Below are positions 26,874 to 44,962 of a DNA stretch of 64,000 nt, piece by piece. Made by a program: the position numbers and the translations under genes. How positions within the stretch are numbered: position 1 is the first letter of the stretch; each line of letters opens with the position of its first letter. The stretch spans positions 177,286 to 241,285 of the forward strand of contig JAVCCK010000020.1 of NCBI GenBank assembly GCA_030765525.1, given 5' to 3'. The notes beneath the pieces were generated by a model. That model saw only the letters and a list, made by a program, of their open reading frames with translations, made no database searches and was not told the DNA's origin. This DNA comes from Candidatus Lernaella stagnicola (GTDB lineage Bacteria > Lernaellota > Lernaellaia > Lernaellales > Lernaellaceae).

Positions 26874-28370
26874 TCAGGCTCGGCGTGCGTCTGGGTCCAT
26901 ATCGGCGGTAAGGCGCGGGTGGCGGGCGGCGGTGACTTCGTCCACCTTTTTGCACGTCGTGTTGTGCGGCGCGCTCTTAACGAGTTCCGGATGGCTTCCG
27001 GCTTCGGCGTGGATGTTCCGCATCGCCGTGATGAAACCGTCGAGCGATTCAGGCTCGAAGCTTTCGGTCGGCTCCACCATGATCGCGCCCTTGACCACCA
27101 GCGGGAAATAGACCGTCGGCGGATGAAAGCCGTAGTCGATCAAACGCTTGGCGACGTCCATCGTCGATACGTCGTTCGGCAGGCCCTTTTCGGCGAATAC
27201 GACTTCGTGCATGCACGGCGCCTCGTAGGCCACCGTGTACAAATCCTGCAGCCGCGCCCGTATGTAGTTGGCATTGAGCACCGCCATTTCGCTGGACGCC
27301 TTGAGCCCCGGCGCGCCGAGTTCGCGGATATAGGCATAGGCCCGCACGAGCACACCAACATTGCCCCACCAGGAACGAACACGCCCGATTGTCTGCGGGC
27401 GATCGTGATCCAGAGCGAAACCGCCATCGCGCTTAACGATGACCGGCGCAGGCAAAAACGGCGCCATATGCTTTTTAACCCCCACCGGCCCGGCGCCCGG
27501 ACCGCCGCCGCCGTGAGGTGTGCTGAAGGTTTTGTGCAAGTTGAAATGTAGCACGTCGATGCCGAAATCGCCCGGCCGCGTGATGCCCATGATGGCGTTC
27601 AGGTTTGCGCCGTCCATGTACACCAGGCCGCCTTGGTCGTGGACGATCTGGGCGATTTGCGCGATGTTCGATTCGAACAGTCCCAGCGTGTTGGGGTTGG
27701 TAATCATGATCGCCGCGACTTGGTCGTCCATGATTTCGGCGACCGCTTCGGGCGTCAGGATACCGGCCGCGCCCGATTTCAGTGGCACGACGTCGTAATT
27801 GCATATCGTGGCCGACGCCGGATTCGTCCCGTGCGCCGTGTCCGGAATGATGACCTTGGTTCGTTTTTGCCCCCGGGCTTCATGGTAGGCGCGGATGAGC
27901 ATCATGCCCGTCAATTCACCATGCGCGCCCGCTGCCGGCTGGCACGTGACCGCGTCCATGCCGGAAATCTCCGCCAGATGCTGTTCGAGGTTGAAGATCA
28001 ACTCCCAAAGGCCTTGGTGCTCGGCGGCCGGATGCGCGTCGGCGAAACCGGGCAGGCGGGCGAGGTCTTCGTTGATTTTCGGGTTGTACTTCATCGTGCA
28101 CGAGCCCAGCGGGTAGAGACCGCTGTCCAGACCGTAGTTGTACTGCGAGAGGCGCACGAAGTGACGAAACACTTCCACTTCGCTGACCTCCGGCCACGCG
28201 GCGGGCGTCAGGCGTTGCAGGTTCTCGGGTAGGGTCGCCGCTTCGGGTACATCGAGCGACGGCAGACTAAAGCCCTGACGGCCGGGCGTCGAGCGTTCGA
28301 AGAGCGTCGGCTCACACAGGGCCAGGCCCGTGCTGCCGGGCGTATCACAAGGACCGTACGATTTCGACAT
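26874..28370 (-). CDS. gcvPB: Glycine dehydrogenase (decarboxylating) subunit 2
   Basis: C-terminal half of P-protein, PLP fold. Start set at ATG 28370 (MSKSYGP...), which overlaps the gcvPA 3' end by 26 nt; no in-frame ATG/GTG/TTG lies closer to the conserved EPTLFERS N-terminus. Confidence 0.85.
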   Translation of the reverse strand: MSKSYGPCDTPGSTGLALCEPTLFERSTPGRQGFSLPSLDVPEAATLPENLQRLTPAAWPEVSEVEVFRHFVRLSQYNYGLDSGLYPLGSCTMKYNPKINEDLARLPGFADAHPAAEHQGLWELIFNLEQHLAEISGMDAVTCQPAAGAHGELTGMMLIRAYHEARGQKRTKVIIPDTAHGTNPASATICNYDVVPLKSGAAGILTPEAVAEIMDDQVAAIMITNPNTLGLFESNIAQIAQIVHDQGGLVYMDGANLNAIMGITRPGDFGIDVLHFNLHKTFSTPHGGGGPGAGPVGVKKHMAPFLPAPVIVKRDGGFALDHDRPQTIGRVRSWWGNVGVLVRAYAYIRELGAPGLKASSEMAVLNANYIRARLQDLYTVAYEAPCMHEVVFAEKGLPNDVSTMDVAKRLIDYGFHPPTVYFPLVVKGAIMVEPTESFEPESLDGFITAMRNIHAEAGSHPELVKSAPHNTTCKKVDEVTAARHPRLTADMDPDARRA

Positions 28371-29676
28371 AGCGGTCGATCTCCTCGCGGCTGTTGGCTT
28401 CGGTGACGCAGGTGAGGATGCCGTTTTCCAGCCCGGCGGCGAACCCGTCCAGGCCGATGCCGCCCAGAACGCCCGCTTCGCCCAGCGCGGCCAACACTTG
28501 ACCCGCGGGTTGTTTGGGCACCCAGACGAACTCATTGAAGGTCGGCGCGCTCAAAGGCACGTCGCCGATTTGCGCCAATTGGGCTTTCAGATATTCGGCC
28601 TTCGCGTGGTTTTGGTTCGCCACTTCCAGCAAGCCGGCGCGGCCTGTCAACGACATGTACACGGTGGCCGCCAGGGCCATCAGGCCGTGATTTGTGCAGA
28701 TGTTGCTGGTGGCTTTTTCGCGGCGGATGTGCTGCTCGCGAGTCGAGAGCGTCAGGCAGAAAGCGCGCTTGCCCTCGGCATCGACGGTCTGCCCGCAAAC
28801 CCGGCCCGGCATAGCCCGCACGTCACTTTTGTTGACCGCGAACAAGCCCAGGCCCGGCCCGCCGTAGGACATGGGAATTCCCAGCGACTGCCCCTCGCCG
28901 CAGGCGATGTCAGCGCCGGTTTGCCCGGGCGGCGCGATCAGCCCGAAGGCCAAAGGCTCGGTGAACGCGTGCACGAACTTCGCCTTCTTGCGGCCGTCGA
29001 GCAGCTTTTTGAACGCGGCGGCGTCTTCGATCGCGCCCAGGTAATTCGGCGACTGCAGTACGAGGCAGGCCACATCGTCGTCGATCAATGCCCGGGCGGC
29101 TTCCAAGTCGGTCGTGCCCGACGCGGCCAGGGGTGCGGCCACCAATTCCAGCGACGTCCATTTCGTATAGGTGCGCAGCGTCTCTAAGTATTGCGGGTGC
29201 AGCCCCGCCGAGACGACGACCTTCGTCTTGCGGCTTTGGCGTCCGGCCATGAGCACGGCTTCGGCCACGCCGGTCGCGCCGTCGTACATGCTGGCGTTGG
29301 AGATTTCCATGCCCAGCAGGCGCGCGATCATCGTCTGAAACTCGAACACCGCCTGCAACGTGCCTTGGCTGATTTCCGGCTGGTACGGCGTGTAGGCCGT
29401 GTAGAATTCGCTGCGTAGCAGCAAGTGGTTTATCGCCGCGGGTATCAAATGCCGATACGCGCCGCCGCCCGCGAAGCAGGGGCCGTGCGGACCTTTGTTG
29501 TTCAAGCCGCCCAGGTGATTGATCAGGGCGTTTTCGGGCAGCGGATCGGGCAGGCATAGTTCCCGGTCTAGGCGCAATTCCGGCGGAATCGAGCGAAACA
29601 GATCGGCCACGCTTTCTACGCCGATCGCCTCCAACAAGCGCTCGATATCGCCCGCGGTATGAGGGATGTAACGCAT
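28345..29676 (-). CDS. gcvPA: Glycine dehydrogenase (decarboxylating) subunit 1
   Basis: MRYIPHT...FYTAYTPYQPEISQG...SNASMYDGATG, N-terminal half of P-protein. Confidence 0.88.
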   Translation of the reverse strand: MRYIPHTAGDIERLLEAIGVESVADLFRSIPPELRLDRELCLPDPLPENALINHLGGLNNKGPHGPCFAGGGAYRHLIPAAINHLLLRSEFYTAYTPYQPEISQGTLQAVFEFQTMIARLLGMEISNASMYDGATGVAEAVLMAGRQSRKTKVVVSAGLHPQYLETLRTYTKWTSLELVAAPLAASGTTDLEAARALIDDDVACLVLQSPNYLGAIEDAAAFKKLLDGRKKAKFVHAFTEPLAFGLIAPPGQTGADIACGEGQSLGIPMSYGGPGLGLFAVNKSDVRAMPGRVCGQTVDAEGKRAFCLTLSTREQHIRREKATSNICTNHGLMALAATVYMSLTGRAGLLEVANQNHAKAEYLKAQLAQIGDVPLSAPTFNEFVWVPKQPAGQVLAALGEAGVLGGIGLDGFAAGLENGILTCVTEANSREEIDRYVEIVRSL

Positions 29677-29706: not shown

Positions 29707-30099
29707 TTACTTCTCTTCTTGTTCACCGCAGTATTTTTCGTAAGCGGCGGCATCCATCAGCGCATCTATTTCGCTCGGGTCGTCGAGCTTAATTTTGAGC
29801 AGCCAGCCCGCGCCGTAGGGCTCGGCATTAAGAATTTCCGGCATGTCGATTAAATCTTCATGGGACTCGACAACTTCCCCGCTCACCGGCGTGTAAATAT
29901 CGCTCGCGGCCTTGACTGATTCCACGACGCCGATCGTATCACCGGCGACGAATGGCTGACCAACTTCGGGCAATTCCAGGAAAACGATGTCACCTAAGGC
30001 ATGCTGGGCATAGTCGGTGACGCCCAGGGTCGCCACATCACCGGCCACTTTGACCCATTCGTGATCCGTGCTGTAACGCAGATCGCTGGGAATGTTCAT
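29707..30099 (-). CDS. gcvH: Glycine cleavage system H protein
   Basis: YSTDHEWV...ESVKAASDIYTPVSG (lipoyl-lysine motif); start at ATG 30099 with AAGGAG RBS. Confidence 0.9.
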   Translation of the reverse strand: MNIPSDLRYSTDHEWVKVAGDVATLGVTDYAQHALGDIVFLELPEVGQPFVAGDTIGVVESVKAASDIYTPVSGEVVESHEDLIDMPEILNAEPYGAGWLLKIKLDDPSEIDALMDAAAYEKYCGEQEEK

Positions 30100-30316
30100 T
30101 CGTTCACTCCTTTGGGAAAAGACATAAGCCGCTTGCCACCATTCTTGACTAGTTTTTCGCCGGGGAGACTCGCCGCCGAGCGTCGCAATGTGCCGCGCTA
30201 CGACACCCTGGGAGTAGCCCATGAAACGAAGGCGAGTCTAGGCCCGAGCCGTGCTTTTGTAAAGACCCGAAGAGGCCGAAACTGGCTAAAAAAAGGGCAT
30301 CGATGTGTCGGGATTC

Positions 30317-32757: not shown

Positions 32758-33900
32758 TTAGTCCGCGAGCAGGTCGCGGGCGATGACGATGCGCTGCACT
32801 TCGCTCGTGCCTTCGTAGATCGTCACCACGCGGGCGTCGCGCATCAGGCGTTCGACAAGGTACTCTTTCGTGTAGCCGTAGCCGCCGTGAATCTGGACCG
32901 CCTCGCGCACGATGTCCTGCAGATTTTCGGCGGCGAACAATTTGGCCATCGATGCCTCGCGCGAAAACTTCAAGCCGGATTGCTTGCGCCAGGCAGCCTG
33001 CAAGGTCAGCAAACGCGCCGCCTCGAGGTTCGTAGCCATGTCGGCCAGCTTCCACTGAATGGCCTGCATCTTGGCCAACGGTTTGCCGAATTGTTCGCGC
33101 ACCTTGGCGTAACTAGCCGCTTCGGCGATCGCCGCCGCGCCGATGCCGATGCACTGGCTGGAAATGCCGATGCGCCCGCCGTCCAGCGCCATCATGGCGA
33201 TCTTGAAGCCGCCGCCCAACTCGCCCAGCAGGTTGTCTTTGGGGATACGGCAATCTTCGAAAGCCAGCGCGACGGTGTTGCTGCCGCGCAGCCCGAGTTT
33301 GTGCTCTTCCTTGCCGACGATCAGTCCCGGCGTGTCCTTTTCCACGAGAAACGCGCTGATGCCCTTCGGGCCGGGGTCGTCGCTGGTGCGCGCCCAGACA
33401 ACCATCACCGAGCAAAACGCGCCGTGGCTAATGAAAATCTTGCTGCCGTTAAGCACCCAGTGGTCGCCGTCCAGCACCGCCTTGGTGCGCAGCGCCGCGG
33501 CGTCGCTGCCCGCGCCGGGTTCCGAGAGCGAGAACGAGCCCATCGGGAACTCGCCGGAGACAACCTTCGGGATGAACGTCCGTTTTTGCTCCTCGGTGCC
33601 GAAGGCGTTGATCGCTTCGGCCACCATGTTGGTGACGCTCATCGTCACGGCGGTCGAGGCGCAGGCTTTGGCCACTTCGGTAATCGCCAGCGAGAGGGCT
33701 ACCGCGCCCATGGGGCTGCCGCCGTATTCTTCTGGCACGTTGATGCCCATCAAGCCCAGTTCTGACATTTTGCGGATGGATTCGAGCGGAAAGCGCTCGG
33801 TTTGGTCTATTTCGGCGGCCTGAGCTTTGAGTTCGTTGTCGGCGAAGTCACGGACCATGTCCACGAGCATGCGTTGGTCGTCGTTAATCTCAAAATGCAT
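32758..33900 (-). CDS. Acyl-CoA dehydrogenase
   Basis: Full-length ACAD pattern (EYGGSPMG, FISHG, YAKVREQFGKPLAKMQAIQWK, GGYGYTKEYLVERLMRDAR); start at ATG 33900. Confidence 0.85.
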   Translation of the reverse strand: MHFEINDDQRMLVDMVRDFADNELKAQAAEIDQTERFPLESIRKMSELGLMGINVPEEYGGSPMGAVALSLAITEVAKACASTAVTMSVTNMVAEAINAFGTEEQKRTFIPKVVSGEFPMGSFSLSEPGAGSDAAALRTKAVLDGDHWVLNGSKIFISHGAFCSVMVVWARTSDDPGPKGISAFLVEKDTPGLIVGKEEHKLGLRGSNTVALAFEDCRIPKDNLLGELGGGFKIAMMALDGGRIGISSQCIGIGAAAIAEAASYAKVREQFGKPLAKMQAIQWKLADMATNLEAARLLTLQAAWRKQSGLKFSREASMAKLFAAENLQDIVREAVQIHGGYGYTKEYLVERLMRDARVVTIYEGTSEVQRIVIARDLLAD

Positions 33901-34063
33901 GTATTTCCCCTGCGATTGCGAGCGAATGAAGCGTTCAGTCACGGCAAATGGTATCGGCTTTCCGGAAAATTGCAAACTGGCGGATTCATGGGGGCGGGAG
34001 TGTCGCACACCCGAATAAAATGATACAAAAAGCGTTCCGACGGTTTCCAGACAAAGGAGTCAG

Positions 34064-34522
34064 GTGATGAAGCAGCGGTGGATTATTCCGGCTTTTGTCT
34101 TGATTGCGGCGGTGGCTTGTCTACCATTTGCCTGCGGTGACGACGATGATGACGATGGCGGCGGACCGGCGGCCGGCTCCGACGTGTGCAGCGATTTGGG
34201 CGACTTGCCGGTTAGCTCAGGGACGATGACCGGCGGATTCACGTTCGACGGCGCCTCGGGTAGCTTCCCGTTGTCGATCACACTCGACGGCGATAACCGT
34301 CAATTGACCGGCACGTTGAGCTTCTCGGATTCCGGCAGTTCCTATTCCGGCAATTGCGCGGGGTATTGGGATTTGGACGGTTACCTGTTCGGCTCATGCG
34401 GCGCGACGAACGGGTCGGATTTTATCGATATCGATATTTTTGGAGACATCGGCGAGAACGGTTCGTGCGGCGCTTGGAATAACGACTTCGGCCAGTCCGG
34501 AGACTACTGGGTCGCACGTTAG
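34064..34522 (+). CDS. Small lipoprotein with poly-Asp linker
   Basis: Signal peptide with lipobox (LPFACG) followed by DDDDDDGGG; 152 aa. Confidence 0.55.
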   Translation: MMKQRWIIPAFVLIAAVACLPFACGDDDDDDGGGPAAGSDVCSDLGDLPVSSGTMTGGFTFDGASGSFPLSITLDGDNRQLTGTLSFSDSGSSYSGNCAGYWDLDGYLFGSCGATNGSDFIDIDIFGDIGENGSCGAWNNDFGQSGDYWVAR

Positions 34523-34677
34523 CTGAAAGCGGAAATTTGATCGAAAAGGCTCACGTTATCGTGGGCCTTTTTTGTCCCGTCATTTGCGCTTTGCGACAAA
34601 GAGAGTACATTCTTCCAACGAAAAACAATGGCCGGCGCGCCGCCACAGACGGCGTCCGGGACCGCAGCGAGGCACAC

Positions 34678-35820
34678 ATGGATTGGCAGCTTAGCGACGA
34701 CCACCGCATGGTTGTGGATATGGTAAAAGATTTCGCGGCGAACGAACTCGCGCCGCAAGCGGCCGAGCTGGATCAAACCGGCCGTTTCCCCATGGAATCC
34801 TTCGTACATATGGCCGAGCTGGGCCTGATGGGCATGAACGCGCCGGAAGAATACGGCGGCAGCCCCATGGGCACGGTGGCGCTGTCGCTGGCGATCACCG
34901 AGGTGGCCAAAGCCTGCGCCTCGACCGCCGTCACGATGGCCGTGACCAACATGGTCGCCGAGCAGATCGACCTCTGGGGCACCGAGGCCCAAAAGAAGGC
35001 GTTTATTCCGCAAGTCGTCGGCGGTGGTCAGCCGATCGGCGCGTTTTGTCTTACCGAACCCGACGCGGGCAGCGACGCGGGAGCCGTGGCCACGACCGCC
35101 GTGCTCGACGGCAACCAGTGGGTGCTCAACGGCACGAAGACATTCATCAGCCACGGCGAATATGCCTCAGTCTATATTGTCTGGGCGAGGACCGGCGACC
35201 TGCCGCGCGCGTCCGGCTTGACGGCGTTTCTAATCGAGGGCGGCACGCCGGGCATAAAGGTGACGCGGCAGATCAAGAAAATGGGGCAGCATGGCTCCAA
35301 TACCGTCGAAATGGCGTTCGAGGACTGCCGCATTCCGAAAGACAACGTGTTGGGCGAAGTCAACGGCGGCTTTCGTATCGCGATGACCGGCCTGGACGGT
35401 GGGCGCATCAACGTGGCCAGCCAGGCGCTCGGCATCGGTTTGGCGGCGCTGGAGGCGAGCGTCGAATACGCGAAAGTGCGCGAACAGTTCGGCAAGCCGC
35501 TGGCCAAGATGCAGGCCATTCAATGGAAGATCGCTGACATGGCGACTTTGCTCGAGGCGGGGCGTCAATTGATTCTGCAAGCCGCGTGGCTCAAGGAGCA
35601 GGGCAAGCGCCACACCCGCCAGGCCGCGATGGCCAAGTACTTCGTCACCGATCGCCTGCAACAGATTGTGCGCGAGGCGGTGCAGATTCACGGCGGCTAC
35701 GGCTACACCAAGGAATACGTGGTCGAACGCCTCATGCGTGACGCGCGAATCACCACGATCTACGAGGGTACGAACGAGATTCAGCGCATCGTCATCGCTC
35801 GCGAGTTGCTTGCGGATTAA
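34678..35820 (+). CDS. Acyl-CoA dehydrogenase (paralog of 32758..33900)
   Basis: Roughly 70% identical by eye to the divergently oriented ACAD; same motifs; start at ATG 34678. Confidence 0.85.
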   Translation: MDWQLSDDHRMVVDMVKDFAANELAPQAAELDQTGRFPMESFVHMAELGLMGMNAPEEYGGSPMGTVALSLAITEVAKACASTAVTMAVTNMVAEQIDLWGTEAQKKAFIPQVVGGGQPIGAFCLTEPDAGSDAGAVATTAVLDGNQWVLNGTKTFISHGEYASVYIVWARTGDLPRASGLTAFLIEGGTPGIKVTRQIKKMGQHGSNTVEMAFEDCRIPKDNVLGEVNGGFRIAMTGLDGGRINVASQALGIGLAALEASVEYAKVREQFGKPLAKMQAIQWKIADMATLLEAGRQLILQAAWLKEQGKRHTRQAAMAKYFVTDRLQQIVREAVQIHGGYGYTKEYVVERLMRDARITTIYEGTNEIQRIVIARELLAD

Positions 35821-36143
35821 TTGGCCGGCGCGTTTTCCGATTCCAGTTCGTCCAGGAATGCCGCGTGCAGACCGCTCATGACGATATCCGTGAATGCCTC
35901 CAAAGACAGCATGGGGTGTGCGGCATAGAGGCCGACCTGAATTTCGGGGGCGATGTGCAGGAAGCAATCCTGGTCGCGACCCTCGGTGCAGGGGCAGTGA
36001 TCGGCCATCAAGATGCGGTGCATGGTATCGCGCCAGGCACGATACGTGATGAGGTCGGCCACGTCGCCGGTGGTGTTGAAGGCGATGCCTTGGGCTGCCA
36101 TTAAGGCGCCGTCCCGCAGAAGTTGAGTTTCTTCCTGTCGCAT
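35817..36143 (-). CDS. Small hypothetical protein, paralog A (conserved CxC...C/His)
   Basis: 108 aa; shares NTTG..ADLI..WR..HR.L...C.C..G....CFL...AF.D.VM.GL with the adjacent paralog. Confidence 0.5.
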   Translation of the reverse strand: MRQEETQLLRDGALMAAQGIAFNTTGDVADLITYRAWRDTMHRILMADHCPCTEGRDQDCFLHIAPEIQVGLYAAHPMLSLEAFTDIVMSGLHAAFLDELESENAPAN

Positions 36144-36262
36144 GATTCGCTCTCCTTTTCTTTTCCCCCTTCCATGGGGTTATTGCGACTACCCGTCCCT
36201 GAGCGGCGTCTTCTTGCACCATAAGGACCAAATTGCGAATGACCAGCGACAGCGTGAATTTA

Positions 36263-36583
36263 TTAATGATCGGCGGGAACGAACATTTCGAAGAGGCCCT
36301 CCATCACCATGTCATGAAAGGCTTGGAGCGCGAACAGGTCGTGATCGGCCAGGGCTTTTTGCTGCTCGGCCTCGGGCCAGCGGAGGAAACAATGCTCGGC
36401 GTCGCCCCGGACGCATGCGCAACCGTTGAGCTGAAGCACGCGGTGAATCGCCTCGCGCCACACGTCCAGCACGATCAGATCGGCCCGCGCGCCGGTGGTG
36501 TTGTGCACGATACGCCGTGCCGCTTCCAGCAAGGCATCGCGGAGAATCACGCTTTCTTCTTCGGTGATCGTCAGTGGGTTCAT
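36263..36583 (-). CDS. Small hypothetical protein, paralog B (conserved CxC...C/His)
   Basis: 106 aa; tandem paralog of 35817..36143. Confidence 0.5.
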   Translation of the reverse strand: MNPLTITEEESVILRDALLEAARRIVHNTTGARADLIVLDVWREAIHRVLQLNGCACVRGDAEHCFLRWPEAEQQKALADHDLFALQAFHDMVMEGLFEMFVPADH

Positions 36584-36632
36584 CGCGCGCGATATCCCCT
36601 GGACAAGCGAAGGGATCTTGAAGGTCGTTCGT

Positions 36633-37418
36633 CTATTCGAGCGTTTCGTCGGTCAAGAAGCGTTCGGTAAAGTAGGCGTCGTCAATCTTCACATCCACTT
36701 CGTATTCTTCGAGCCTGAGTATGGTGGAGGCGCCCTTTAGCAGGTCGCTCATTTTCGTGTCTTTGGCGACCCAAGTGCCGTCGGAGCGCTTCTCCACGCC
36801 CGAGACTTCGAGCCGTTTCCAGAGCTTGCCCTTCTTATCGTAGAACTCGCCTTTGATGGGCAGGAAGTTGTCCTTGCGCACCCAGTAAACCAGTTTCGAG
36901 TAAATTTCGTCGTCGAGATTCTGCGGGACGGTCTCCACGACGTAGCAATCCTGGCCGTCGAGAACAGCATCGGCGAGGCGCTGATGGGCTCCTTGGTCCG
37001 GATCGTGGGTTTGCAGGTCGGCGTAGGCAAAGGTCGAGCCCATGAAATTGCCCGACTTATTCGATGACGTGATCCGCTTGACCTTCTTGAGCGCCGGCAG
37101 GAAGAGACGCTGATCGTCGTCGGCGTTTTTCTGCTCCACGATCAGGAACTTAGTGCCGCGCACATCCGGCGGGGCGAGGAAGGTCGTGACGGTGTGGCGC
37201 AAGCCGTTCTTTTCCTTGGTGCGCATTTTGATCTCGCGCACGCGCTCGCGGCCGTTTTTGTCGATGAGTATCATCTTGGCCGTCGTTTCGGCCGATTGGC
37301 TCTCGTTCTGTTTGGCCATCTTTTCCACGATCGCCTTGCCGTCGAGATCCGCCGCCGACACTACGGCCACCGCGATCACTAACGCCAATCCCACGCCGAG
37401 CAGTAAACGCAAACGCAT
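36633..37418 (-). CDS. Outer-membrane lipoprotein-sorting-protein-like (LolA-like) secreted protein
   Basis: Signal peptide from ATG 37418 (GGGAGGA RBS); composition and length fit the LolA-like family; assignment by resemblance only. Confidence 0.5.
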   Translation of the reverse strand: MRLRLLLGVGLALVIAVAVVSAADLDGKAIVEKMAKQNESQSAETTAKMILIDKNGRERVREIKMRTKEKNGLRHTVTTFLAPPDVRGTKFLIVEQKNADDDQRLFLPALKKVKRITSSNKSGNFMGSTFAYADLQTHDPDQGAHQRLADAVLDGQDCYVVETVPQNLDDEIYSKLVYWVRKDNFLPIKGEFYDKKGKLWKRLEVSGVEKRSDGTWVAKDTKMSDLLKGASTILRLEEYEVDVKIDDAYFTERFLTDETLE

Positions 37419-37539
37419 CAAGCTTCCTCCCGGTTTCATTATCGGCTGCATCTTGGCACGTCGGCCGCGTCGGCATCAACCCGCGTGCGCGAACCGGGCG
37501 GTCTTGCCTACCGGCTTCGGGCTGCTATCCTACTGCCCG

Positions 37540-38961
37540 ATGTGCAACCGTAGGTTTCTATTTATTCGCGTGGCGGCGGTGTTGCTTTTGGTGACGCTGG
37601 CGGTAGTGGTGTGTCTCGCGGCCTGCGACAAACGCGCCCGACTGCCGGACCGTAACGTCATTCTCGTCAGCATCGATTCCCTGCGTTTCGATCATGTGGG
37701 TTGTTACGGTTACCCCAAGCCGACCAGCCCGCGACTGGATGCGTGGGCGCGAAATGCGATGCGTTTTGAGTTCGCCTATGCCACGTCGCCCTGGACCCTG
37801 CCGAGCCACGCTTCGATGTTTACCGGCCTGTATACCGACGCCCACGGCGTGCGTTCCGCCAGGTCTAAGCTGAACGACGAATCCATGACGCTGGCGCGCG
37901 CTCTCTCGGACGCGGGCTATCGCACCGGCGGCGTGGTGTGTGCGCCGCTGCTCAAGAAAAAGTACGGTATGCACCAGGGCTTCGATTTCTACGACACCGA
38001 GTTGGTCGGCCGTAACGCCTTGGAGGCTCGCGTGGTGAAGGCGGGGCCTCGGGTGACCAACAAAGCGTTGGCGTGGCTGGACCGCAGCGGCGACAAGCCC
38101 TTCTTCCTCTTTTTGCACTATTGGGACGTTCACTACGATTACAATCCGCCCGCCAAGTACGCGGAGTTGTTCAACCCCGGGTACGAAGGCCCGGAGAACG
38201 GCGCGAGCATTCACGACCGCAAGGACATCACGCCGAAGATGGACAAGGCCGACTTTCGTCACCTCGTGGCGCTTTACGACGGCGAAATCCGCTTTACCGA
38301 CGACGCGCTCGGCGCGCTTTTCGACGGCCTGCGGGAACGCGGCCTGGACCGCAACACGGCGATCCTCATCGTCTCGGATCACGGCGAGGAATTCCTCGAC
38401 CACGGTTGGAAGGGCCATACGCGCACCTGCTACGAAGAAGTAGTGCGCATTCCTTTCCTGATCGAGGTCCCCTGGTTGGAAAAAGCGCGCGGCGTCAGTC
38501 AGGAGGCCGTGAGTCTCGTCGATATCTTTCCCACCGTGTTGGGATTGCTCGGCCGCCCGAAAGAAGGGCTGACGCTTCAGGGCGTCGATCTGAACCGGCT
38601 GCTCACCCACGGTACGCCGCCCGCGCCGCGCTCGTTGATGGCCGGTACGCAGCGGGGGCAGCCGGTACCCGAGGGCAAGGCGTACGAGTGGTCGACGCTG
38701 ATTGCGCGGGACCGGCAAAAGCTGCACGCCTTGAGCGGTCGCCGTTTCGACGAACAGTGGGTGTTCGATCTGCGAAACGACCCCGGTGAGAAAACGGACA
38801 TATCGGGTGGGAAGCCCGCCCTGACCGCAAAACTAGTGCAGGAGAATTCGCGGCGGCAAAGGTTGCACAAGCGATTACAGAAGGCGCTTAAAACCAGCGG
38901 CGAGTTTGAACTCGATGCCGAGTTGGCCGAAACGTTGAAGGGATTGGGGTATCTCAATTGA
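37540..38961 (+). CDS. Sulfatase-like hydrolase/transferase (alkaline phosphatase superfamily), lipoprotein
   Basis: VILVSIDSLRFDHVG...SPWTLPSHASMFTGLY...SDHGEEF; lipobox signal peptide from ATG 37540. Confidence 0.7.
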   Translation: MCNRRFLFIRVAAVLLLVTLAVVVCLAACDKRARLPDRNVILVSIDSLRFDHVGCYGYPKPTSPRLDAWARNAMRFEFAYATSPWTLPSHASMFTGLYTDAHGVRSARSKLNDESMTLARALSDAGYRTGGVVCAPLLKKKYGMHQGFDFYDTELVGRNALEARVVKAGPRVTNKALAWLDRSGDKPFFLFLHYWDVHYDYNPPAKYAELFNPGYEGPENGASIHDRKDITPKMDKADFRHLVALYDGEIRFTDDALGALFDGLRERGLDRNTAILIVSDHGEEFLDHGWKGHTRTCYEEVVRIPFLIEVPWLEKARGVSQEAVSLVDIFPTVLGLLGRPKEGLTLQGVDLNRLLTHGTPPAPRSLMAGTQRGQPVPEGKAYEWSTLIARDRQKLHALSGRRFDEQWVFDLRNDPGEKTDISGGKPALTAKLVQENSRRQRLHKRLQKALKTSGEFELDAELAETLKGLGYLN

Positions 38962-40391
38962 CCCGTTTCGGCCGGCTGGTATTGGTCGCGCTCGTCTTGA
39001 CCGTGGTGGCGTGTCAAAAATCGCCGCCGGTGAAGCAGACCGGCCAGAACATTCTGCTGATCAGCATCGATTCGCTGCGCGCCGACCACGTAGGTGCCTA
39101 TGGCTACGGCCCGCCGACGACCCCGGCTCTTGACGCCTTTGCGCAAACCGGCGCTGTGTTTACGCGATCCTACGCCAACAGCCCGTGGACGCTGCCCAGC
39201 CATGTGTCGATGCTGACCGGCTTGTATCCGGACACCCACCTGGCGGTGAGAAACGACAGCTACCTAAGCGACCGCGTCACCACTGCGGCCGAAGCGTTGG
39301 CGTCGGCCGGCTATGACACGCACGCAGTGGTTTGCGCGCCGTTTTTACGCAGCACCTACAACCTGGCCCAGGGTTTCAAAACCTACGACGAGGAAATTGC
39401 GCATACCAAGCGGCCCAACATTCGGCGAATCAAAACCAGCGAAACCGTGACCGACAAAGCCGTCGCCTATTTGAAAAAACGAGCGGGCAGCCCGGAGCCG
39501 TTCTTTCTTTTCGTTCACTACTGGGACGTTCACTACGATTACAATCCGCCGAAGAAATACGTCGAGATATTCGATCCGGACTACCAAGGCGATCTCGACG
39601 GTTTGAACATCAGCAAGCGCGACGATCTGAAGCGCGGGATGAACGAGCGCGACCGCCGGCACCTGCTGGCGCTTTACGACGGCGAAATCCGCCTCACCGA
39701 CGACCACCTGCGCCGCTTGCTCGCCTACCTGGACGAGACCGGGATGGCCGCCAACACGGCGATCCTCATCACCGCCGATCACGGCGAGGAATTCTTGGAG
39801 CACGGGACGGTCGGCCATACCTTCACGTGTTTCGAGGAACTGATTCGTGTGCCGTTGATCGCGCGGATACCGGGCGTGACGCGGCCCGGGCAGCGTATCG
39901 ACACGCCGGTGGAGAACGTCGATCTTTTCCCCACAATGCTGGCGGTCGCCGGCGCGAGCGTGGAAAAGAAAACACAGGGCCACAACCTATTACCCGTGAT
40001 TCGTGACGGCATCGAACTCGCCCGCGACCGAATCTTCTGCGAAACGCGCATGGGTCGGCGGTGGGGGTGGCGCAAGCCCAACGGCGTCTGGCGCAGCCTG
40101 TTGTTCGACGACGGCAAGAAGGTCCACAGCTTCAAAGAAAGCGGCAAGAAGACAGAATTCAACTTGTACGATATCGACGCGGATCCCGGCGAGACCGACG
40201 ACCTAGCGGCAGCGGAAAACGGTGGCGAATTGCTTTTGCCGCGGCGTCGCGAGCTATCGCAGACGCATCGCGCACACACGGGGTTGGCCGAGCGGCGCAA
40301 TATCAAGCCCGATAGCTGGCGCTATCGCCGGAAAACGAAAAACAACGAAGACCTCGATGAACAGCTTCGGGGTCTTGGATACGTGAATTGA
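38958..40391 (+). CDS. Sulfatase-like hydrolase/transferase, tandem paralog
   Basis: ILLISIDSLRADHVG...SPWTLPSHVSMLTGLY...ADHGEEF; TTG start overlapping the upstream stop (TTGA); shares identical ~29-nt stretches with the upstream paralog. Confidence 0.7.
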   Translation: MTRFGRLVLVALVLTVVACQKSPPVKQTGQNILLISIDSLRADHVGAYGYGPPTTPALDAFAQTGAVFTRSYANSPWTLPSHVSMLTGLYPDTHLAVRNDSYLSDRVTTAAEALASAGYDTHAVVCAPFLRSTYNLAQGFKTYDEEIAHTKRPNIRRIKTSETVTDKAVAYLKKRAGSPEPFFLFVHYWDVHYDYNPPKKYVEIFDPDYQGDLDGLNISKRDDLKRGMNERDRRHLLALYDGEIRLTDDHLRRLLAYLDETGMAANTAILITADHGEEFLEHGTVGHTFTCFEELIRVPLIARIPGVTRPGQRIDTPVENVDLFPTMLAVAGASVEKKTQGHNLLPVIRDGIELARDRIFCETRMGRRWGWRKPNGVWRSLLFDDGKKVHSFKESGKKTEFNLYDIDADPGETDDLAAAENGGELLLPRRRELSQTHRAHTGLAERRNIKPDSWRYRRKTKNNEDLDEQLRGLGYVN

Positions 40392-40407
40392 ACGTGGGGG
40401 ACCGGCG

Positions 40408-41700
40408 ATGAAAATCTCGCCTCGTTTTCGGGTTCTCCTGCGACGCTATGTACTCTTCCCCTTATTGCCGGTGGCGGCATTGGTGATCGTGCTCACGCTG
40501 GTGCTCGGCGGGCTGGAAAAAGCGGACGTAATCGACACCGAGCGGCCCGACGATCTCGTCGCTTACAAACCCATCAACTTCGCGCCGGTGAAGGAAGAAA
40601 ACGGGCGGAAGCTCGTGCGCATCGACGAACCCACGATGGTGCCGGAAACCTTCAGCCTCAAGCCCGAACCGGGTGTCATGCGCATTGTGGTAACCGGCGG
40701 CTCGTTCGCCATGGGTTGGCCCTATGCGGTGCAGGGGAGGGAGCGGCGCGGCGGCGACTTGCCCAGTTGGCTGGAAGTGCTGTTGAAGGCCGGTTGGCCG
40801 CAGCGCAAATTCGAGGTGATCAACGCCGCGGCGGGCGCGCAGAATTCCTTCCGCGTCAAGCACGTCGTGCATGCGGCACTGCAATGGTCGCCGGACGTGC
40901 TGGTGGTCATGGTCGGAAACAACGAGGGCTACGTACCGCCAACCTCGTGGAACGAGATTCTGCACGAGTGGACGTTCTATCGGGCCATGAAAAAGGCGCT
41001 CTTGCCCGACGTCGCGCCGGAGAAACGACCCATGTATCCGGCCATCGGCGTCGGCATGAAAACCATCCGCGCGCAGTTTCAACGGAACATGCGCGACATC
41101 GTGACGATGAGTCGCGACGCCCAAGTACCTATCGTAGTCGCCACGGTGCCGATCAACCTTCGCTACTTTCCGACCGCCGAGGAATATTTGCCGCCCGACA
41201 AACCGTGGTACGCCGAAGGCCGCCGTCTGCAAGAAAGCGGTCGGTACGAGGAGGCGATCCGGAAATACATCGGCGGAGACCTCCGGGGCTACGGCCTGCG
41301 GTTATCCGGACAATGTTACGAGGCGCTCGAACAATGGAATCGCGCTCGCGCGGCCTATCGAGCGGGCGTGGAGTATCTGCCGTTTTCCCAAACCAGGCCG
41401 TCGTTCAACGAGTTCGTGCGTGAGTTGGCGGACGATCTCGACCTTCCGTTGGTCGATTTGGAGCGCGACTTCGAAAAGCAATCGCCTCATGGCATCACCG
41501 GCGACCGCTGGTTCATCGACGGTTGCCACTTGGATTGGCGAGGGTACTACTTCACCGCCCGCCGCGTGCTGGCGGCTCTCGAAGTCGCCGATTTGGTGAC
41601 CGGTCGGCGCACCGGCGAACTGCCCGAGGCCGAAGACTACGCCGTCTCGCACGATTTGATCGACTACATGGAGACGACCCAGCCGGCGCGCCTGCCATAA
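40408..41700 (+). CDS. SGNH/GDSL-like hydrolase, membrane-anchored
   Basis: N-terminal TM; RIVVTGGSFAMG (block I-like), VVMVGNNE; approximate. Confidence 0.45.
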   Translation: MKISPRFRVLLRRYVLFPLLPVAALVIVLTLVLGGLEKADVIDTERPDDLVAYKPINFAPVKEENGRKLVRIDEPTMVPETFSLKPEPGVMRIVVTGGSFAMGWPYAVQGRERRGGDLPSWLEVLLKAGWPQRKFEVINAAAGAQNSFRVKHVVHAALQWSPDVLVVMVGNNEGYVPPTSWNEILHEWTFYRAMKKALLPDVAPEKRPMYPAIGVGMKTIRAQFQRNMRDIVTMSRDAQVPIVVATVPINLRYFPTAEEYLPPDKPWYAEGRRLQESGRYEEAIRKYIGGDLRGYGLRLSGQCYEALEQWNRARAAYRAGVEYLPFSQTRPSFNEFVRELADDLDLPLVDLERDFEKQSPHGITGDRWFIDGCHLDWRGYYFTARRVLAALEVADLVTGRRTGELPEAEDYAVSHDLIDYMETTQPARLP

Positions 41701-41746: not shown

Positions 41747-44700
41747 TTATTTCTTTTTACGCAGGAAGCGGCCGAGGATCGTGATTTCGACCGGCATCGT
41801 GAGCCGCTGGCCGATTTTGACTTCGTCGGCTGCGATCGGCGGCCGGCCCTTCGGCGCCGGAATCACCTGCAAGGTCTTGCTTTTGGCATAACGCGCCTGC
41901 ACGAATGCCTGGCCGATCAACTTGCCTTCGCCGTCGGTGGCGCAACTGGTCACGTAGCCGATGCACGCGCCTTTGTCGTTGACGATCGGGTCGTCCGTTT
42001 TCAGCGGCCGGGTTCCCTTGGCGGAGACGCCGAAACGCACGACGGCGATTCCGCGCTTTTCCTTTTTCGCTAGGTAGGCCTTTTTGCCCACGAAAAACGG
42101 CTTGTGCAGTTTGACGAAACCGCCGAATCCGGCTTCGTTGGGCACGAGGTTGTGCGGGCCGGCCAGTTCGTGTCCGTACAGCGGCAAACCGGCTTCCATG
42201 CGCAGGCTGTCCCGCGCGCCGAGGCCGATCGGCATCACGCCGTGCTCCTTTCCGGCTTCCATGATCGCTTCCCAAAGCTGCGGCGCCTTGTCGGGATGCA
42301 CGAAAATCTCGAAGCAAGTCGGCTCGCCGGTATAACCCGTGCCGGAGATGATCGCGTCGAGGCCGTCCAACGTGGCGTACATGGTGCAGTTGTGCCCCAA
42401 GGCTTTCAGCGCCGGTTTGTCCGCTTCGGCCGCGAGTGCCAGCAAGATGTCGCGCGAACGCGGGCCTTGCAGCGCCAGGTCGACACGACGCTCGTCGCCC
42501 CATTGCGGGTCTTTCAGATTGCGCAGCACGCAAGGCTCGGGGAAGCAGCGTTGCGGCACCTGCGGATCGAGCAGCACCCGCCCTTCGTTGACCGCAACCA
42601 GCCACGCCCAATCCTTGTCTTCGTTGGCGGCGTTGACGACCAGCAGAATGCGGTCGGCCTGAACGTGGTAGACGAGCAGATCATCGAGCAAATCGCCGTC
42701 GTGATCGAACAGGTGCGAGTACTGCGCCTCGCCGACCTCCAAACCGCCGGCGTGATTGGCGCAAACCAGATCGACGAACTCCATCGCCCGCGGGCCGCTG
42801 GCCTCGAACACGCCCATGTGGCTGACGTCGAACAGCCCCGCCGCTTGCCGCACGGCGTTGTGTTCCTCGATGGTCGAGGTGTAACGCACCGGCATTTCGT
42901 ATCCGCCGAAGGGCACCATCACGCCGCCGAGTTTCTGGTGAATCTCAAACAGCGTGGTGCGCTTGTCTTCGCCTTCCGGCGCATTCCAGGAGAAGCGCGG
43001 CAAGTCCGGCTGGGGCAGGCGGTCGGCCAGCGCGCTTTGGCCCACAAAGAAAGGCCGCGCGACGTCCACATTCAACTCGGCGGCGTCTTTCCCGGCGAGG
43101 CTTTTATCGGTTTTCGGCAACAGGCTCAGCCAATCCTGAGCGAAGGTGCAATCCAACGGCATTTCGTCGATCACCACCGCGCCGGTGACTTTCGCCGAAG
43201 CATCCTGCGGATCGATCATCGTGAAGCCGTCGGCAAGACCGCGCAACCAGGCCAACAGGGGATCGGCGTTGTCCGGGTTTACTTTCACCACGAAACCGTT
43301 GCGGCGCGGATCATCGCTGAGCGGCAGCCGGGCCAGCGCGATTTCGTCCAGCACGTTGCCTTGATCGTCGAGCGCCAGGCTCGTCACCTTTTCGCCGTCG
43401 GCCAGGTGCGAAGGATCGGTGACCAGCGCCTCGCGCAGGAATTCGTCGGCTTCGGCGCCCGTCAACTTGACGATCACGGCCTCTTCGGAGTGGTCCAAAT
43501 ACGGATGGTGCGGATAGCCCGAAAGCGCCGGCGCATCCACACGCCAGGTGCGGGTTAACGCGTCAACTTCCTCGGACACTTCGCGCAGCACCTTCAAGTC
43601 GATCTTGCCGCGCGGCAGCACGCGGGTCATGCCGTCGTAATGCACGGGATGAATCGCGGTGATCACCCGGTGGATCAAGCGCGCGATGTGCTTGACGTCT
43701 TCCGCGTCGGCCCCGCGCTGCGTCACCCACGGCGTGCCGAGGCGCAGGCCCGTGGCCAGCGGCGTGGCGGTGTCGCCGGGGATGGTGTTTTTGTTGAGGA
43801 TGATGCCCGCCAGTTCCAGAATGTGCGCGGCCGGCTCGCCGTAAAGCAGCGGCGTTCCCCGGGGGGTGAGCGGTTTGAGGTCGATCAGCAGCTTGTGCGT
43901 ATCGGTGCCGCCGTAGGCGAGGCGAACGCCCAGCCGCTGGAATTCTTCGGCCATCACTTTCGCGTGGCCGGCGATGCGGTGCATGAGCTGCCGGAACGAG
44001 TCGGTCTGCGCCAGCTTGAACGCCACGGCCAGCGCGGCAATCGTGTTCATATGCGGGCCGCCTTGCTCGCCCGGGAAGACGCTGTTGTGGATCTTCGCCG
44101 CCAGCTTGCCGCTGCTGGTGAGGATCACCGCACCGCGCGGACCCATCAAGGTCTTGTGGGTCGTGAACGTCACTACATGGGCATGGTCGATCGGGTTCGG
44201 GTAATCCCCGGCCACGGTCAGACCCGCCGGGTGGGCGATGTCGGCCATCAGGTATGCGCCCACTTCGTCGGCAATGGCGCGGAACTTGGCGAAATCCGGC
44301 GCCCAGGGGTAGGACGTGTACCCGGCGATGATCATCTTCGGCCGATGTTCCTTGGCCAGCCTCATCACTTCGTCGTAATCGATCAGTTCGGTTTGCGGGT
44401 CCACGCCGTAGGGCACGATGTGGTAGTGCTTGCCGGTCATGTGGAAGGGGCTGCCGTGCGAGAGGTGCCCGCCCGCCATGAGGTCCAGGGCCATGACGGT
44501 GCCGCCGCGGGGCACCAGGGCTTCGTACACGGCGATGTTGGCCGGGGCGCCCGAGAGGGGCTGCACGTTGGCGTGGATTTTCGACGCCGGTGTCTTTTCG
44601 GTGGCGAAGCACTCGGCGGCGCGGGTGCGGCAGATCGATTCCACGAGGTTCACGTACGCGTTGCCCTTGTAAAAGCGGCGGTCGGCGTAGCGGCGGTAGC

Positions 44701-44962
44701 GCACGAGCCGGGTGGCGATGTCGGACAGGTTTTCCATCGGCATCAGCGTGTTTTCGCGCGCCGGGTAGCCTTCCGCGTAGAGGTTCGTGAAACACGTGTC
44801 GAGCATCCGGCGCACCGGCCAGGCGCAAATACTTTCCGAGGGAATCAGCACGATGTGCCGCGCCTGCCGCTCTTCCTCCCAGTGGAGCAGTTCGTTCATC
44901 AGGGAGTCGGCGTTCTGGATGTTTTCGTCGAAAAGGAAATCGATGATCGCTTCGTCGGACAT
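41747..44962 (-). CDS. Fusion protein: serine hydroxymethyltransferase (GlyA-like) N-terminal domain + glycine cleavage T-protein (aminomethyltransferase) C-terminal domain
   Basis: Single 1071-codon ORF. N-terminal AEGYP...ANVQPLSGAPAN...GGHLSHG...VVTFTTHKTLMGPRG (SHMT PLP-lysine motif). C-terminal FGGYEMPVRY...GLFDVSHMG...TGYTGE...GLGARDSLRMEAGLPLYG (GcvT). GAGGT RBS before ATG 44962. Confidence 0.8.
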   Translation of the reverse strand: MSDEAIIDFLFDENIQNADSLMNELLHWEEERQARHIVLIPSESICAWPVRRMLDTCFTNLYAEGYPARENTLMPMENLSDIATRLVRYRRYADRRFYKGNAYVNLVESICRTRAAECFATEKTPASKIHANVQPLSGAPANIAVYEALVPRGGTVMALDLMAGGHLSHGSPFHMTGKHYHIVPYGVDPQTELIDYDEVMRLAKEHRPKMIIAGYTSYPWAPDFAKFRAIADEVGAYLMADIAHPAGLTVAGDYPNPIDHAHVVTFTTHKTLMGPRGAVILTSSGKLAAKIHNSVFPGEQGGPHMNTIAALAVAFKLAQTDSFRQLMHRIAGHAKVMAEEFQRLGVRLAYGGTDTHKLLIDLKPLTPRGTPLLYGEPAAHILELAGIILNKNTIPGDTATPLATGLRLGTPWVTQRGADAEDVKHIARLIHRVITAIHPVHYDGMTRVLPRGKIDLKVLREVSEEVDALTRTWRVDAPALSGYPHHPYLDHSEEAVIVKLTGAEADEFLREALVTDPSHLADGEKVTSLALDDQGNVLDEIALARLPLSDDPRRNGFVVKVNPDNADPLLAWLRGLADGFTMIDPQDASAKVTGAVVIDEMPLDCTFAQDWLSLLPKTDKSLAGKDAAELNVDVARPFFVGQSALADRLPQPDLPRFSWNAPEGEDKRTTLFEIHQKLGGVMVPFGGYEMPVRYTSTIEEHNAVRQAAGLFDVSHMGVFEASGPRAMEFVDLVCANHAGGLEVGEAQYSHLFDHDGDLLDDLLVYHVQADRILLVVNAANEDKDWAWLVAVNEGRVLLDPQVPQRCFPEPCVLRNLKDPQWGDERRVDLALQGPRSRDILLALAAEADKPALKALGHNCTMYATLDGLDAIISGTGYTGEPTCFEIFVHPDKAPQLWEAIMEAGKEHGVMPIGLGARDSLRMEAGLPLYGHELAGPHNLVPNEAGFGGFVKLHKPFFVGKKAYLAKKEKRGIAVVRFGVSAKGTRPLKTDDPIVNDKGACIGYVTSCATDGEGKLIGQAFVQARYAKSKTLQVIPAPKGRPPIAADEVKIGQRLTMPVEITILGRFLRKKK

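What the first reader, a model, noticed from the sequence alone, without database searches (positions are those of the whole stretch)
35817..36583. Tandem pair of small paralogous proteins with a conserved CxC...C/His signature
Two ~107-aa proteins share the pattern LRD.AL...NTTG..ADLI....WR..HR.L....C.C..G....CFL........AF.D.VM.GL. I do not recognise the family. The conserved Cys/His cluster suggests metal or redox chemistry. They lie between an ACAD and a LolA-like gene.
Basis: seen in the sequence. Interest (0 to 1): 0.45.

Follow-up and report, generated by a model that had tools for sequence, protein, structure and literature searches.

The report
Duplicated small Cys3-His metal-binding helical protein
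Two neighbouring genes in an uncultured Antarctic-lake bacterium encode copies of a rare, unnamed 100-residue helical protein with an almost invariant three-cysteine-plus-histidine site that probably holds a metal ion; in other bacteria the same gene usually sits directly behind a DksA/TraR-type regulator gene, so it is a modestly interesting unknown.

Summary
Two minus-strand genes (35817-36143, 108 aa; 36263-36583, 106 aa) are paralogues: 42% identity over 95 residues, E 2e-25. They are hypothetical proteins P9L99_09640 and P9L99_09645 of the MAG Candidatus Lernaella stagnicola.

No Pfam, NCBIfam, PHROG, PADLOC or PDB sequence match exists. An exhaustive HMMER search of 1.84 billion representatives found only 41 other clusters, all metagenomic single-domain proteins of 65-128 aa.

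The shared core is W-x4-H-x6-9-C-x-C-x5-9-C-F-[LM]. The three Cys and the His are essentially invariant, and one member has His in place of the first Cys. Most members have no other Cys, and some have no other His. NTTG..ADLI is specific to the Lernaella pair.

Across 14 distinct loci, including the window, there is no link to LolA-like genes, and an acyl-CoA dehydrogenase (ACAD) is adjacent in one further locus only. In five loci the gene overlaps the end of a ~100-aa DksA/TraR zinc-finger gene. In seven it faces a conserved ~240-aa unknown protein.

Best reading: a cytoplasmic Cys3His (probably zinc) protein acting as a protein-binding partner in regulation. The function is inferred, not shown.

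The parts
36263..36583 (-). Upstream paralogue (sp2), 106 aa, P9L99_09645; member of the unnamed Cys3His helical family
   Evidence: ORF; identical to P0001; HMM match 2e-26 to the family profile; AlphaFold pLDDT 94.5, helices 8-26, 34-52, 56-59, 71-77, 86-101
35817..36143 (-). Downstream paralogue (sp1), 108 aa, P9L99_09640; same family
   Evidence: ORF; identical to P0002; 42% identical to sp2, E 2e-25; AlphaFold pLDDT 96.3 with the same helix order
36383..36445 (-). Predicted metal-site segment of sp2: H47, C55, C57, C65-F66-L67
   Evidence: Codon positions read; column conservation 42/43, 42/43 (+1 His), 43/43, 43/43, 43/43
35958..36020 (-). Predicted metal-site segment of sp1: H42, C50, C52, C60-F61-L62
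   Evidence: Codon positions read; invariant columns in alignment A4
36152..36157 (-). Shine-Dalgarno-like AAGGAG, 8 nt before the sp1 start codon
   Evidence: Read directly from the sequence
36595..36600 (-). Shine-Dalgarno-like AGGGGA, 11 nt before the sp2 start codon
   Evidence: Read directly from the sequence
36633..37451 (-). Context only: LolA_like periplasmic protein gene, 49 nt upstream on the same strand (possible co-transcription, not shown; no association in other loci)
   Evidence: PF17131 E 1.6e-58; no minus-strand terminator-like site between the genes; tblastn finds it in no other family locus
34537..35820 (+). Context only: acyl-CoA dehydrogenase, convergent, 3' end overlapping the sp1 stop codon
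   Evidence: Acyl-CoA_dh_N/M/1 domains; an ACAD also lies 580 nt upstream of the closest homologue P0003, but on the same strand there

Best explanation
The two genes are tandem duplicates of a rare, so far unnamed bacterial protein family. Members are about 100 aa, cytoplasmic (I see no signal peptide in the N-termini) and fold as a compact bundle of three long and two short helices. A histidine near the end of helix 2 and three cysteines in the following loop and short helices (H-x6-9-C-x-C-x5-9-C-F) most likely form one tetrahedral Cys3His site, with zinc the default candidate. That site would pin the short helices to the long ones. I infer that the protein is not an enzyme but a protein-binding module. 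In many lineages its gene is translationally coupled to a short DksA/TraR-type zinc-finger protein, a family whose characterised members bind RNA polymerase, and it faces a conserved ~240-aa unknown protein. It therefore probably works in a regulatory complex, and the thiolate-rich site could act as a metal or redox sensor. In Ca. Lernaella the gene has been duplicated. It has no DksA/TraR or ~240-aa partner within the 64 kb window, so the two copies may pair with each other or with partners encoded elsewhere. Shown here: paralogy, the existence of the family, ligand conservation, the confident helical fold and the recurrent gene neighbourhood. Inferred: metal binding, the identity of the metal, complex formation and any role in transcription.
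For: Paralogy is E 2e-25. The family comprises 43 clusters of 65-128 aa among 1.84 billion representatives, with the closest relative P0003 at E 9.7e-24. Invariant or near-invariant residues are W42, H47, C55, C57, C65, F66 and F89. 26 of 43 members have exactly three Cys, and several have one His only, the conserved one. P0038 has His in place of the first Cys, a swap between two metal ligands that a disulfide could not tolerate. The Cys-Cys spacing varies by a few residues while the ligands stay. AlphaFold gives pLDDT 94.5 and 96.3 and pTM 0.86 for both copies, with H47 in helix 2 and the Cys residues in the adjacent loop and short helices. A DksA/TraR zinc-finger gene (PF01258, E 2e-8 to 5e-15) overlaps the family gene's start by 8-35 nt in L043, L044/45, L052 and L053, and tblastn finds a homologue immediately upstream in L028. 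A homologous ~240-aa protein lies convergently downstream in seven loci. Redox or metal genes flank two further members: a P-type heavy-metal ATPase cluster in L001, and AhpC/DsbD/cytochrome bd in L051.
Against: No metal was measured. Model coordinates are not returned, so the site geometry could not be checked. The window proteins and their four closest relatives (P0003-P0006) lack the DksA/TraR and ~240-aa neighbours, so the partnership may not apply to this clade. The isoelectric point varies from 4.5 to 9.3 across the family, so no uniform charge-based interaction is evident. The DksA-like partners score below every curated NCBIfam cut-off and match only the zinc-finger part, so RNA polymerase binding by them is itself unproven.
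Confidence: 0.45

Rival explanations
1. The Cys3His site binds an iron-sulfur cluster (2Fe-2S or 4Fe-4S) rather than zinc, and the protein is a redox, iron or NO sensor. This would be analogous in ligand set to IscR or mitoNEET.
For: Three Cys plus one His is a recognised Fe-S ligand set (established knowledge for IscR and CDGSH proteins). The host is a facultative anaerobe from an anoxic lake zone (PMC9324843). Thioredoxin/AhpC/DsbD and cytochrome bd genes flank P0022.
Against: No match to any Fe-S domain model. The ligand order and the all-helical fold differ from CDGSH and from Rrf2 regulators. Sequence alone cannot distinguish zinc from Fe-S.
Confidence: 0.2
2. It is a soft-metal (Cu(I), Zn, Cd) chaperone or buffer that belongs to metal homeostasis rather than to regulation.
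For: P0035 lies directly after an HMA/E1-E2 P-type ATPase, in a cluster with a CsoR-like repressor, HMA-DsbD, HMA-thioredoxin and cupredoxin genes. CxC is a common thiolate metal motif.
Against: This context is seen in only 1 of 14 loci. There is no HMA or other metallochaperone domain and no relation to CsoR (hhalign probability 0.2%). A single buried-looking site in a rigid helical bundle suits a structural or sensing site better than metal trafficking.
Confidence: 0.1
3. The pair serves its neighbours in the window, for example as an accessory factor of the acyl-CoA dehydrogenase or beta-oxidation genes, or of the LolA-like protein with which it may be co-transcribed.
For: The pair lies 49 nt downstream of the LolA_like gene with no predicted terminator between them. 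The closest homologue, P0003, lies 580 nt after an ACAD in a thiolase/enoyl-CoA hydratase/ACAD cluster.
Against: LolA_like is absent from all 13 other loci, and an ACAD is present in only one, in a different orientation. The LolA-like protein begins with a signal-peptide-like hydrophobic stretch, whereas I see none in the small proteins. The L037 ACAD is only about 50% identical to the window ACADs, no closer than a Flavihumibacter ACAD picked up by chance.
Confidence: 0.07
4. It is a metal-free thiol/disulfide redox switch that uses the CxC pair.
For: Conserved vicinal-type Cys residues, and redox genes near two members.
Against: The invariant His, and the Cys-to-His replacement of the first Cys in P0038, fit metal ligation and not a disulfide. 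Three Cys rather than two are conserved.
Confidence: 0.05
5. They are spurious ORFs in GC-rich DNA.
For: Long antisense ORFs overlap the region, as is usual at 60% GC.
Against: There are homologues in contigs of 35-66% GC with conserved motifs, very confident fold predictions, and ribosome-binding sites.
Confidence: 0.01

Closest known systems
DksA/TraR-family C4 zinc-finger proteins (PF01258) and their partners
   Same: These are small cytoplasmic zinc-dependent proteins. In at least five loci a DksA/TraR-type gene is translationally coupled to a member of this family.
   Different: The window proteins have no CxxC-x17-CxxC finger and no Pfam match to PF01258. No dedicated partner of this kind turned up in the literature search or is known to me. 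The window itself has no DksA/TraR gene.
Zinc-binding anti-sigma factors (ZAS, H-x3-C-x2-C)
   Same: Small helical regulators in which a His/Cys zinc site can act as a redox switch and which work by binding another protein.
   Different: The motif here is H-x6-9-C-x-C-x5-9-C, not H-x3-C-x2-C. There is no Pfam match and no sigma factor gene among the called neighbours.
3Cys-1His Fe-S proteins (IscR, CDGSH/mitoNEET)
   Same: The same ligand set: three Cys and one His.
   Different: Different ligand order and spacing. The fold is all-helical, with no winged helix or beta-cap, and there are no domain matches.
CsoR/RcnR metal sensors (PF02583)
   Same: About 100 aa, all-helical, Cys/His metal site. 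One family member shares a locus with a CsoR-like gene.
   Different: No Pfam match, and hhalign probability 0.2% against the CsoR-like protein of L001.
Uncharacterised N-terminal alpha-helical domain fused to DksA/TraR fingers in TYPP family 2 proteins (Burroughs and Aravind 2014, PMC4275035)
   Same: An unnamed helical module linked with a DksA/TraR zinc finger and a third unknown domain.
   Different: All 41 homologues found are free-standing proteins of 65-128 aa; none is a domain of a longer protein. The ~240-aa neighbour shows no GGxP motif or conserved Gln, the TYPP hallmarks, and does not hit YwqG in the PDB profile search. Homology could not be tested directly.

Membership tests
Unnamed family defined here (W-x4-H-x6-9-C-x-C-x5-9-C-F-[LM], ~100 aa, helical) | Significant match to the family profile over the whole length | tested here: met
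   sp1 and sp2 score 1e-26 and 2e-26 against the 43-sequence profile. Independent members were found with the two-sequence profile down to E 9.7e-24.
Unnamed family defined here | His plus three Cys at the conserved positions | tested here: met
   sp2 has H47, C55, C57 and C65; sp1 has H42, C50, C52 and C60.
Unnamed family defined here | The four ligands lie close enough together to hold one metal ion | not testable with these tools
   The models are confident, but coordinates are not returned, so inter-atomic distances could not be measured.
DksA/TraR C4 zinc finger (PF01258) | CxxC-x17-CxxC finger matching PF01258 | tested here: not met
   No Pfam or NCBIfam match for sp1 or sp2. Each has only three Cys.
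CsoR/RcnR (PF02583) | Match to Trns_repr_metal and its Cys-His-Cys fingerprint | tested here: not met
   No Pfam hit. hhalign probability 0.2%.
ZAS anti-sigma factors | H-x3-C-x2-C motif | tested here: not met
   The motif is absent; the spacing is H-x7-C-x-C in both proteins.
CDGSH iron-sulfur domain | C-x-C-x2-(S/T)-x3-P-x-C-D-G-(S/A/T)-H (motif from my own knowledge) and a beta-cap fold | tested here: not met
   The His precedes the Cys residues, there is no CDGSH sequence, the model is all-helical, and no Pfam family matches significantly.
WhiB-like and BFD-like Fe-S proteins | Four Cys in C-xn-C-x2-C-x5-C or C-x-C-xn-C-x2-C (motifs from my own knowledge) | tested here: not met
   Only three Cys are conserved, and there are no Pfam matches.
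Phage protein families or known anti-phage defence systems | Match to PHROGs or PADLOC models, or presence on viral contigs | tested here: not met
   No hits. The single viral-contig pattern match is not a family member.
N-terminal helical domain of TYPP family 2 | Sequence or profile similarity to that domain | not tested
This is only a literature lead.

The most novel reading that the evidence does not exclude
The family is the sensor subunit of an undescribed three-gene regulatory module found in scattered uncultured bacteria. The module consists of a short DksA/TraR-type zinc-finger protein, this Cys3His helical protein and a ~240-aa unknown protein. In this reading the Cys3His site reads metal or redox state and gates the access of the DksA-like factor to RNA polymerase. 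The Lernaella pair would be a derived, partner-free or self-pairing version.
Probability: 0.15. Interest if true: 0.65.

Novelty: new variant of a known kind. Interest (0 to 1): 0.4.

Why it matters
If the inference holds, this is a compact and very confidently modelled helical metalloprotein fold with no relative among the solved or viral structures searched. It would also be the first candidate dedicated partner of a DksA/TraR-type factor that I am aware of. That would give a concrete handle on how secondary-channel-type regulators might be coupled to metal or redox signals in uncultured phyla. The family is small: 43 clusters among 1.84 billion representatives. It is experimentally tractable at about 100 aa with a single site. 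For the window itself the practical result is narrower: two hypothetical genes can be annotated as a tandem pair of putative Cys3His metal-binding proteins, unrelated to the flanking ACAD and LolA-like genes.

Tried and rejected
Domain and family libraries gave nothing for the two proteins or for all 43 family members: Pfam, NCBIfam, PHROGs and PADLOC.

PDB sequence profiles gave only chance-level hits. These were a polyketide synthase segment at E 8e-4 made of two roughly 10-bit pieces, and a NifU-like protein at E 0.78 with no Cys aligned.

The word-indexed protein search found only the query itself, twice, and five family proteins with the profile.

I replaced it with a degenerate DNA pattern for the motif. 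Most pattern hits were chance matches, which I removed by hmmsearch.

CsoR homology was rejected by hhalign.

Rfam around the locus gave only sub-threshold terminator-like hits at 34470-34579. The promoter and terminator scan was uninformative.

The ~240-aa neighbour has no Pfam, NCBIfam, PADLOC or PDB match.

A link to LolA-like or ACAD genes was examined and rejected as a family property (and the context calls).

Full report
**1. What is in the window**

The finding's coordinates hold two minus-strand ORFs: 36263..36583 (106 aa, called sp2 here) and 35817..36143 (108 aa, sp1). BLASTP aligns them without gaps over 95 residues at 42% identity, E 2e-25, so they are true paralogues.

Each ORF is preceded by a Shine-Dalgarno-like sequence: AAGGAG 8 nt before sp1 and AGGGGA 11 nt before sp2. 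I see no signal peptide in either N-terminus.

The exact sequences are on record as hypothetical proteins P9L99_09645 and P9L99_09640 of the MAG Candidatus Lernaella stagnicola. This organism belongs to the phylum Ca. Lernaellota, formerly FEN-1099. It is described as a facultative anaerobe from Ace Lake, Antarctica (PMC9324843).

- A LolA_like gene (PF17131, E 1.6e-58) ends 49 nt upstream on the same strand.
- An acyl-CoA dehydrogenase converges on sp1, and their 3' ends overlap.
- Further out lie a second ACAD, two sulfatases, a GDSL lipase and glycine-cleavage genes.

**2. Is it a known family?**

No. Several independent searches were negative.
- Pfam, NCBIfam, PHROGs and PADLOC give nothing for the two proteins.
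- Pfam and NCBIfam, scanned with all 43 family members, also give nothing consistent.
- PDB sequence profiles give only chance-level hits.
- The word-indexed search of 5.8 billion proteins found only the queries themselves.
- The exhaustive HMMER search of 1.84 billion cluster representatives, seeded with the two-sequence profile, found 41 further clusters at E of 1e-3 or better.

The best of these hits is P0003, at E 9.7e-24. All are free-standing proteins of 65-128 aa, and none is a domain of a longer protein. Every member I looked up is a metagenomic protein that is unnamed or called only "hypothetical protein". The contigs range from 35% to 66% GC. The family is therefore widespread but very rare.

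**3. What defines the family**

In the 43-sequence alignment the key positions, in sp2 numbering, are as follows.

| Residue | Conservation | Note |
|---|---|---|
| C57, C65, F66 | 43/43 | invariant |
| C55 | 42/43 | the exception, P0038, has His |
| W42, H47 | 42/43 | the exception is the N-terminally truncated fragment P0028 |
| F89 | 40/43 | |

- The motif is W-x4-H-x6-9-C-x-C-x5-9-C-F-[LM], usually written G-C-P-C. It is followed by a conserved Gln and an L-S-F-x2-F segment.
- Of the 43 members, 26 have exactly three Cys, and several have a single His, the conserved one. These four residues are thus the whole Cys/His complement the family needs.
- A Cys-to-His swap at a ligand position, and loops of variable length with fixed ligands, are what a metal site predicts and what a disulfide does not.
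- The NTTG..ADLI motif is shared only by the two Lernaella copies. P0003 has NTAF..IEEIL at that point, and most members have a deletion there. This supports a lineage-specific duplication.
- Only the window, and its JGI metagenome copy L021, carries two copies. All other loci carry one.

**4. Structure**

AlphaFold2 with the family alignment gives very confident all-helical models for both copies, each with pTM 0.86: sp2 has pLDDT 94.5 and sp1 has pLDDT 96.3.

The order of elements is the same in both. In sp2 the helices span residues 8-26, 34-52, 56-59, 71-77 and 86-101. H47 lies near the end of helix 2. C55 and C57 sit at the start of the first short helix, and C65 follows a few residues later.

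No structural relative emerged:
- Foldseek against the PDB finds nothing below E 1.7.
- Foldseek against BFVD finds nothing below E 0.68.
- The AlphaFold-database library was unavailable.
- Coordinates are not returned, so I could not measure the site geometry.

**5. Genomic context elsewhere**

I recovered 13 further distinct loci, by exact-protein look-ups and by a degenerate DNA pattern for the motif. Chance pattern matches were filtered out with the family HMM.

| Neighbour | Loci |
|---|---|
| LolA_like | none |
| ACAD | L037 only (closest relative P0003); 580 nt upstream, same strand, about 50% identical to the window ACADs |
| ~100-aa DksA/TraR zinc-finger gene immediately upstream | L028, L043, L044/45, L052, L053 |
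| Homologous ~240-aa protein, convergent downstream | the five above plus L001 and L050 |

- In L043, L044/45, L052 and L053 the DksA/TraR gene (PF01258, E 2e-8 to 5e-15 in my own scans) overlaps the family gene's start by 8-35 nt. This indicates translational coupling. In L028 a homologue lies immediately upstream by tblastn.
- DksA/TraR genes are few per genome, so five immediate adjacencies in 14 loci cannot plausibly be chance.
- These partners match only the finger part of the DksA, TraR and YteA models, below every curated cut-off. L053 also carries a longer, more DksA-like copy of 131 aa that matches the models over most of its length, though still below the cut-offs. The partners are therefore a distinct paralogous subfamily.
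- The ~240-aa protein has no Pfam, NCBIfam, PADLOC or PDB match.
- Two other members sit in metal or redox settings. L001 follows a heavy-metal P-type ATPase in a CsoR/HMA-DsbD/thioredoxin/cupredoxin cluster. L051 lies next to AhpC-type and DsbD genes, close to cytochrome bd and thioredoxin genes.
- The window proteins and their closest relatives (P0003-P0006) have none of these partners nearby. tblastn finds no DksA/TraR-like or ~240-aa homologue anywhere in the 64 kb window.

**6. Most likely mechanism**

This is a small cytoplasmic helical protein held together by one Cys3His metal site. Zinc is the default candidate, and an Fe-S cluster cannot be excluded. I see no candidate catalytic residues beyond the ligands. 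The conserved positions are mainly hydrophobic core residues plus one Gln.

Taken with the translational coupling to a DksA/TraR-type protein, the best-supported role is a protein-binding subunit of a regulatory complex. The thiolate site may serve as a metal or redox sensor.

For the Lernaella pair I infer the same biochemistry. The two diverged copies may pair with each other or with partners encoded elsewhere in the genome. The metal, the complex and the regulatory role are all inferences. Confidence that this is a metal-binding family is about 0.7. Confidence in the DksA-linked regulatory role for this particular pair is about 0.3.

**7. Rivals**

- Fe-S sensor (0.2).
- Metal chaperone or buffer (0.1).
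- Accessory to the ACAD or LolA-like neighbours (0.07).
- Metal-free thiol switch (0.05).
- Spurious ORFs (about 0.01).

The evidence for and against each is given in the rival entries.

**8. Comparison with known systems**

The family resembles small zinc- or Fe-S-dependent helical regulators such as ZAS anti-sigma factors, CsoR and IscR-type ligand sets. It fails each membership test that could be run: motif spacing, Pfam models, hhalign and fold.

One literature lead remains untested. [quoted passage not shown] The ~240-aa neighbour shows neither the GGxP motif nor the conserved Gln of TYPP domains. No long fusion proteins were hit by the family profile.

**9. Verdict**

- The suggested link to the neighbouring genes is not supported.
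- The family appears undescribed, and its function is unknown.
- The DksA/TraR linkage is the one feature that raises it above an ordinary hypothetical protein. Interest is 0.4.

Noticed in passing
L028, L043, L044/L045, L052, L053 (also L001, L050): A conserved module in uncultured bacteria: a ~100-aa DksA/TraR zinc-finger gene overlapping the start of the Cys3His gene, then a convergent ~240-aa protein with no Pfam, NCBIfam or PDB match. Its conserved motifs are VRRExP, YxNC, EGxxxLGG..T..GF and FRGF.
   Followed up: partly
window 41747..44962 (-): A single 1071-aa ORF combines a serine hydroxymethyltransferase domain (residues 92-430) with a glycine-cleavage T-protein aminomethyltransferase domain (672-938). 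GcvP (28345..29676) and GcvH (29707..30222) lie about 12 kb away. This is an unusual fusion of two one-carbon enzymes.
   Followed up: no
window 32758..35820: Two acyl-CoA dehydrogenase paralogues on opposite strands flank a 152-aa lipoprotein-like ORF (34064..34522, +) with a run of six Asp and no family match.
   Followed up: no
window ~37560..41700 (+): Two tandem sulfatase genes, then a GDSL-lipase/TPR protein, divergent from the LolA-like gene. This fits the reported sulfatase richness of this MAG.
   Followed up: no
window 34470..34579 (+): Sub-threshold Rfam hits to enterobacterial sRNA models (best 26.7 bits against a gathering score of 45), located between the lipoprotein-like ORF and the ACAD. 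Most likely a terminator-like hairpin and not a real sRNA.
   Followed up: no
L039 1..5540 (-): The contig carrying homologue P0004 has a called gene of more than 1960 aa, with a NUDIX domain hit as well as RNA polymerase beta and beta-prime domains. Next to it is a row of five small unknown genes and a cREC_REC protein.
   Followed up: no
L046 2428..2781 (-), L016, L020: In the P0006 clade a Cys-rich DUF3795 protein is encoded divergently upstream of the family gene. It is 77% identical between two related contigs.
   Followed up: no
window 45303..46421 (-): A 372-aa protein with an HTH_3 domain and a sub-threshold Peptidase_M78 (ImmA/IrrE-like) match (20.1 bits against a cut-off of 22). This is the architecture of a stress or prophage-type regulator.
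   Followed up: no
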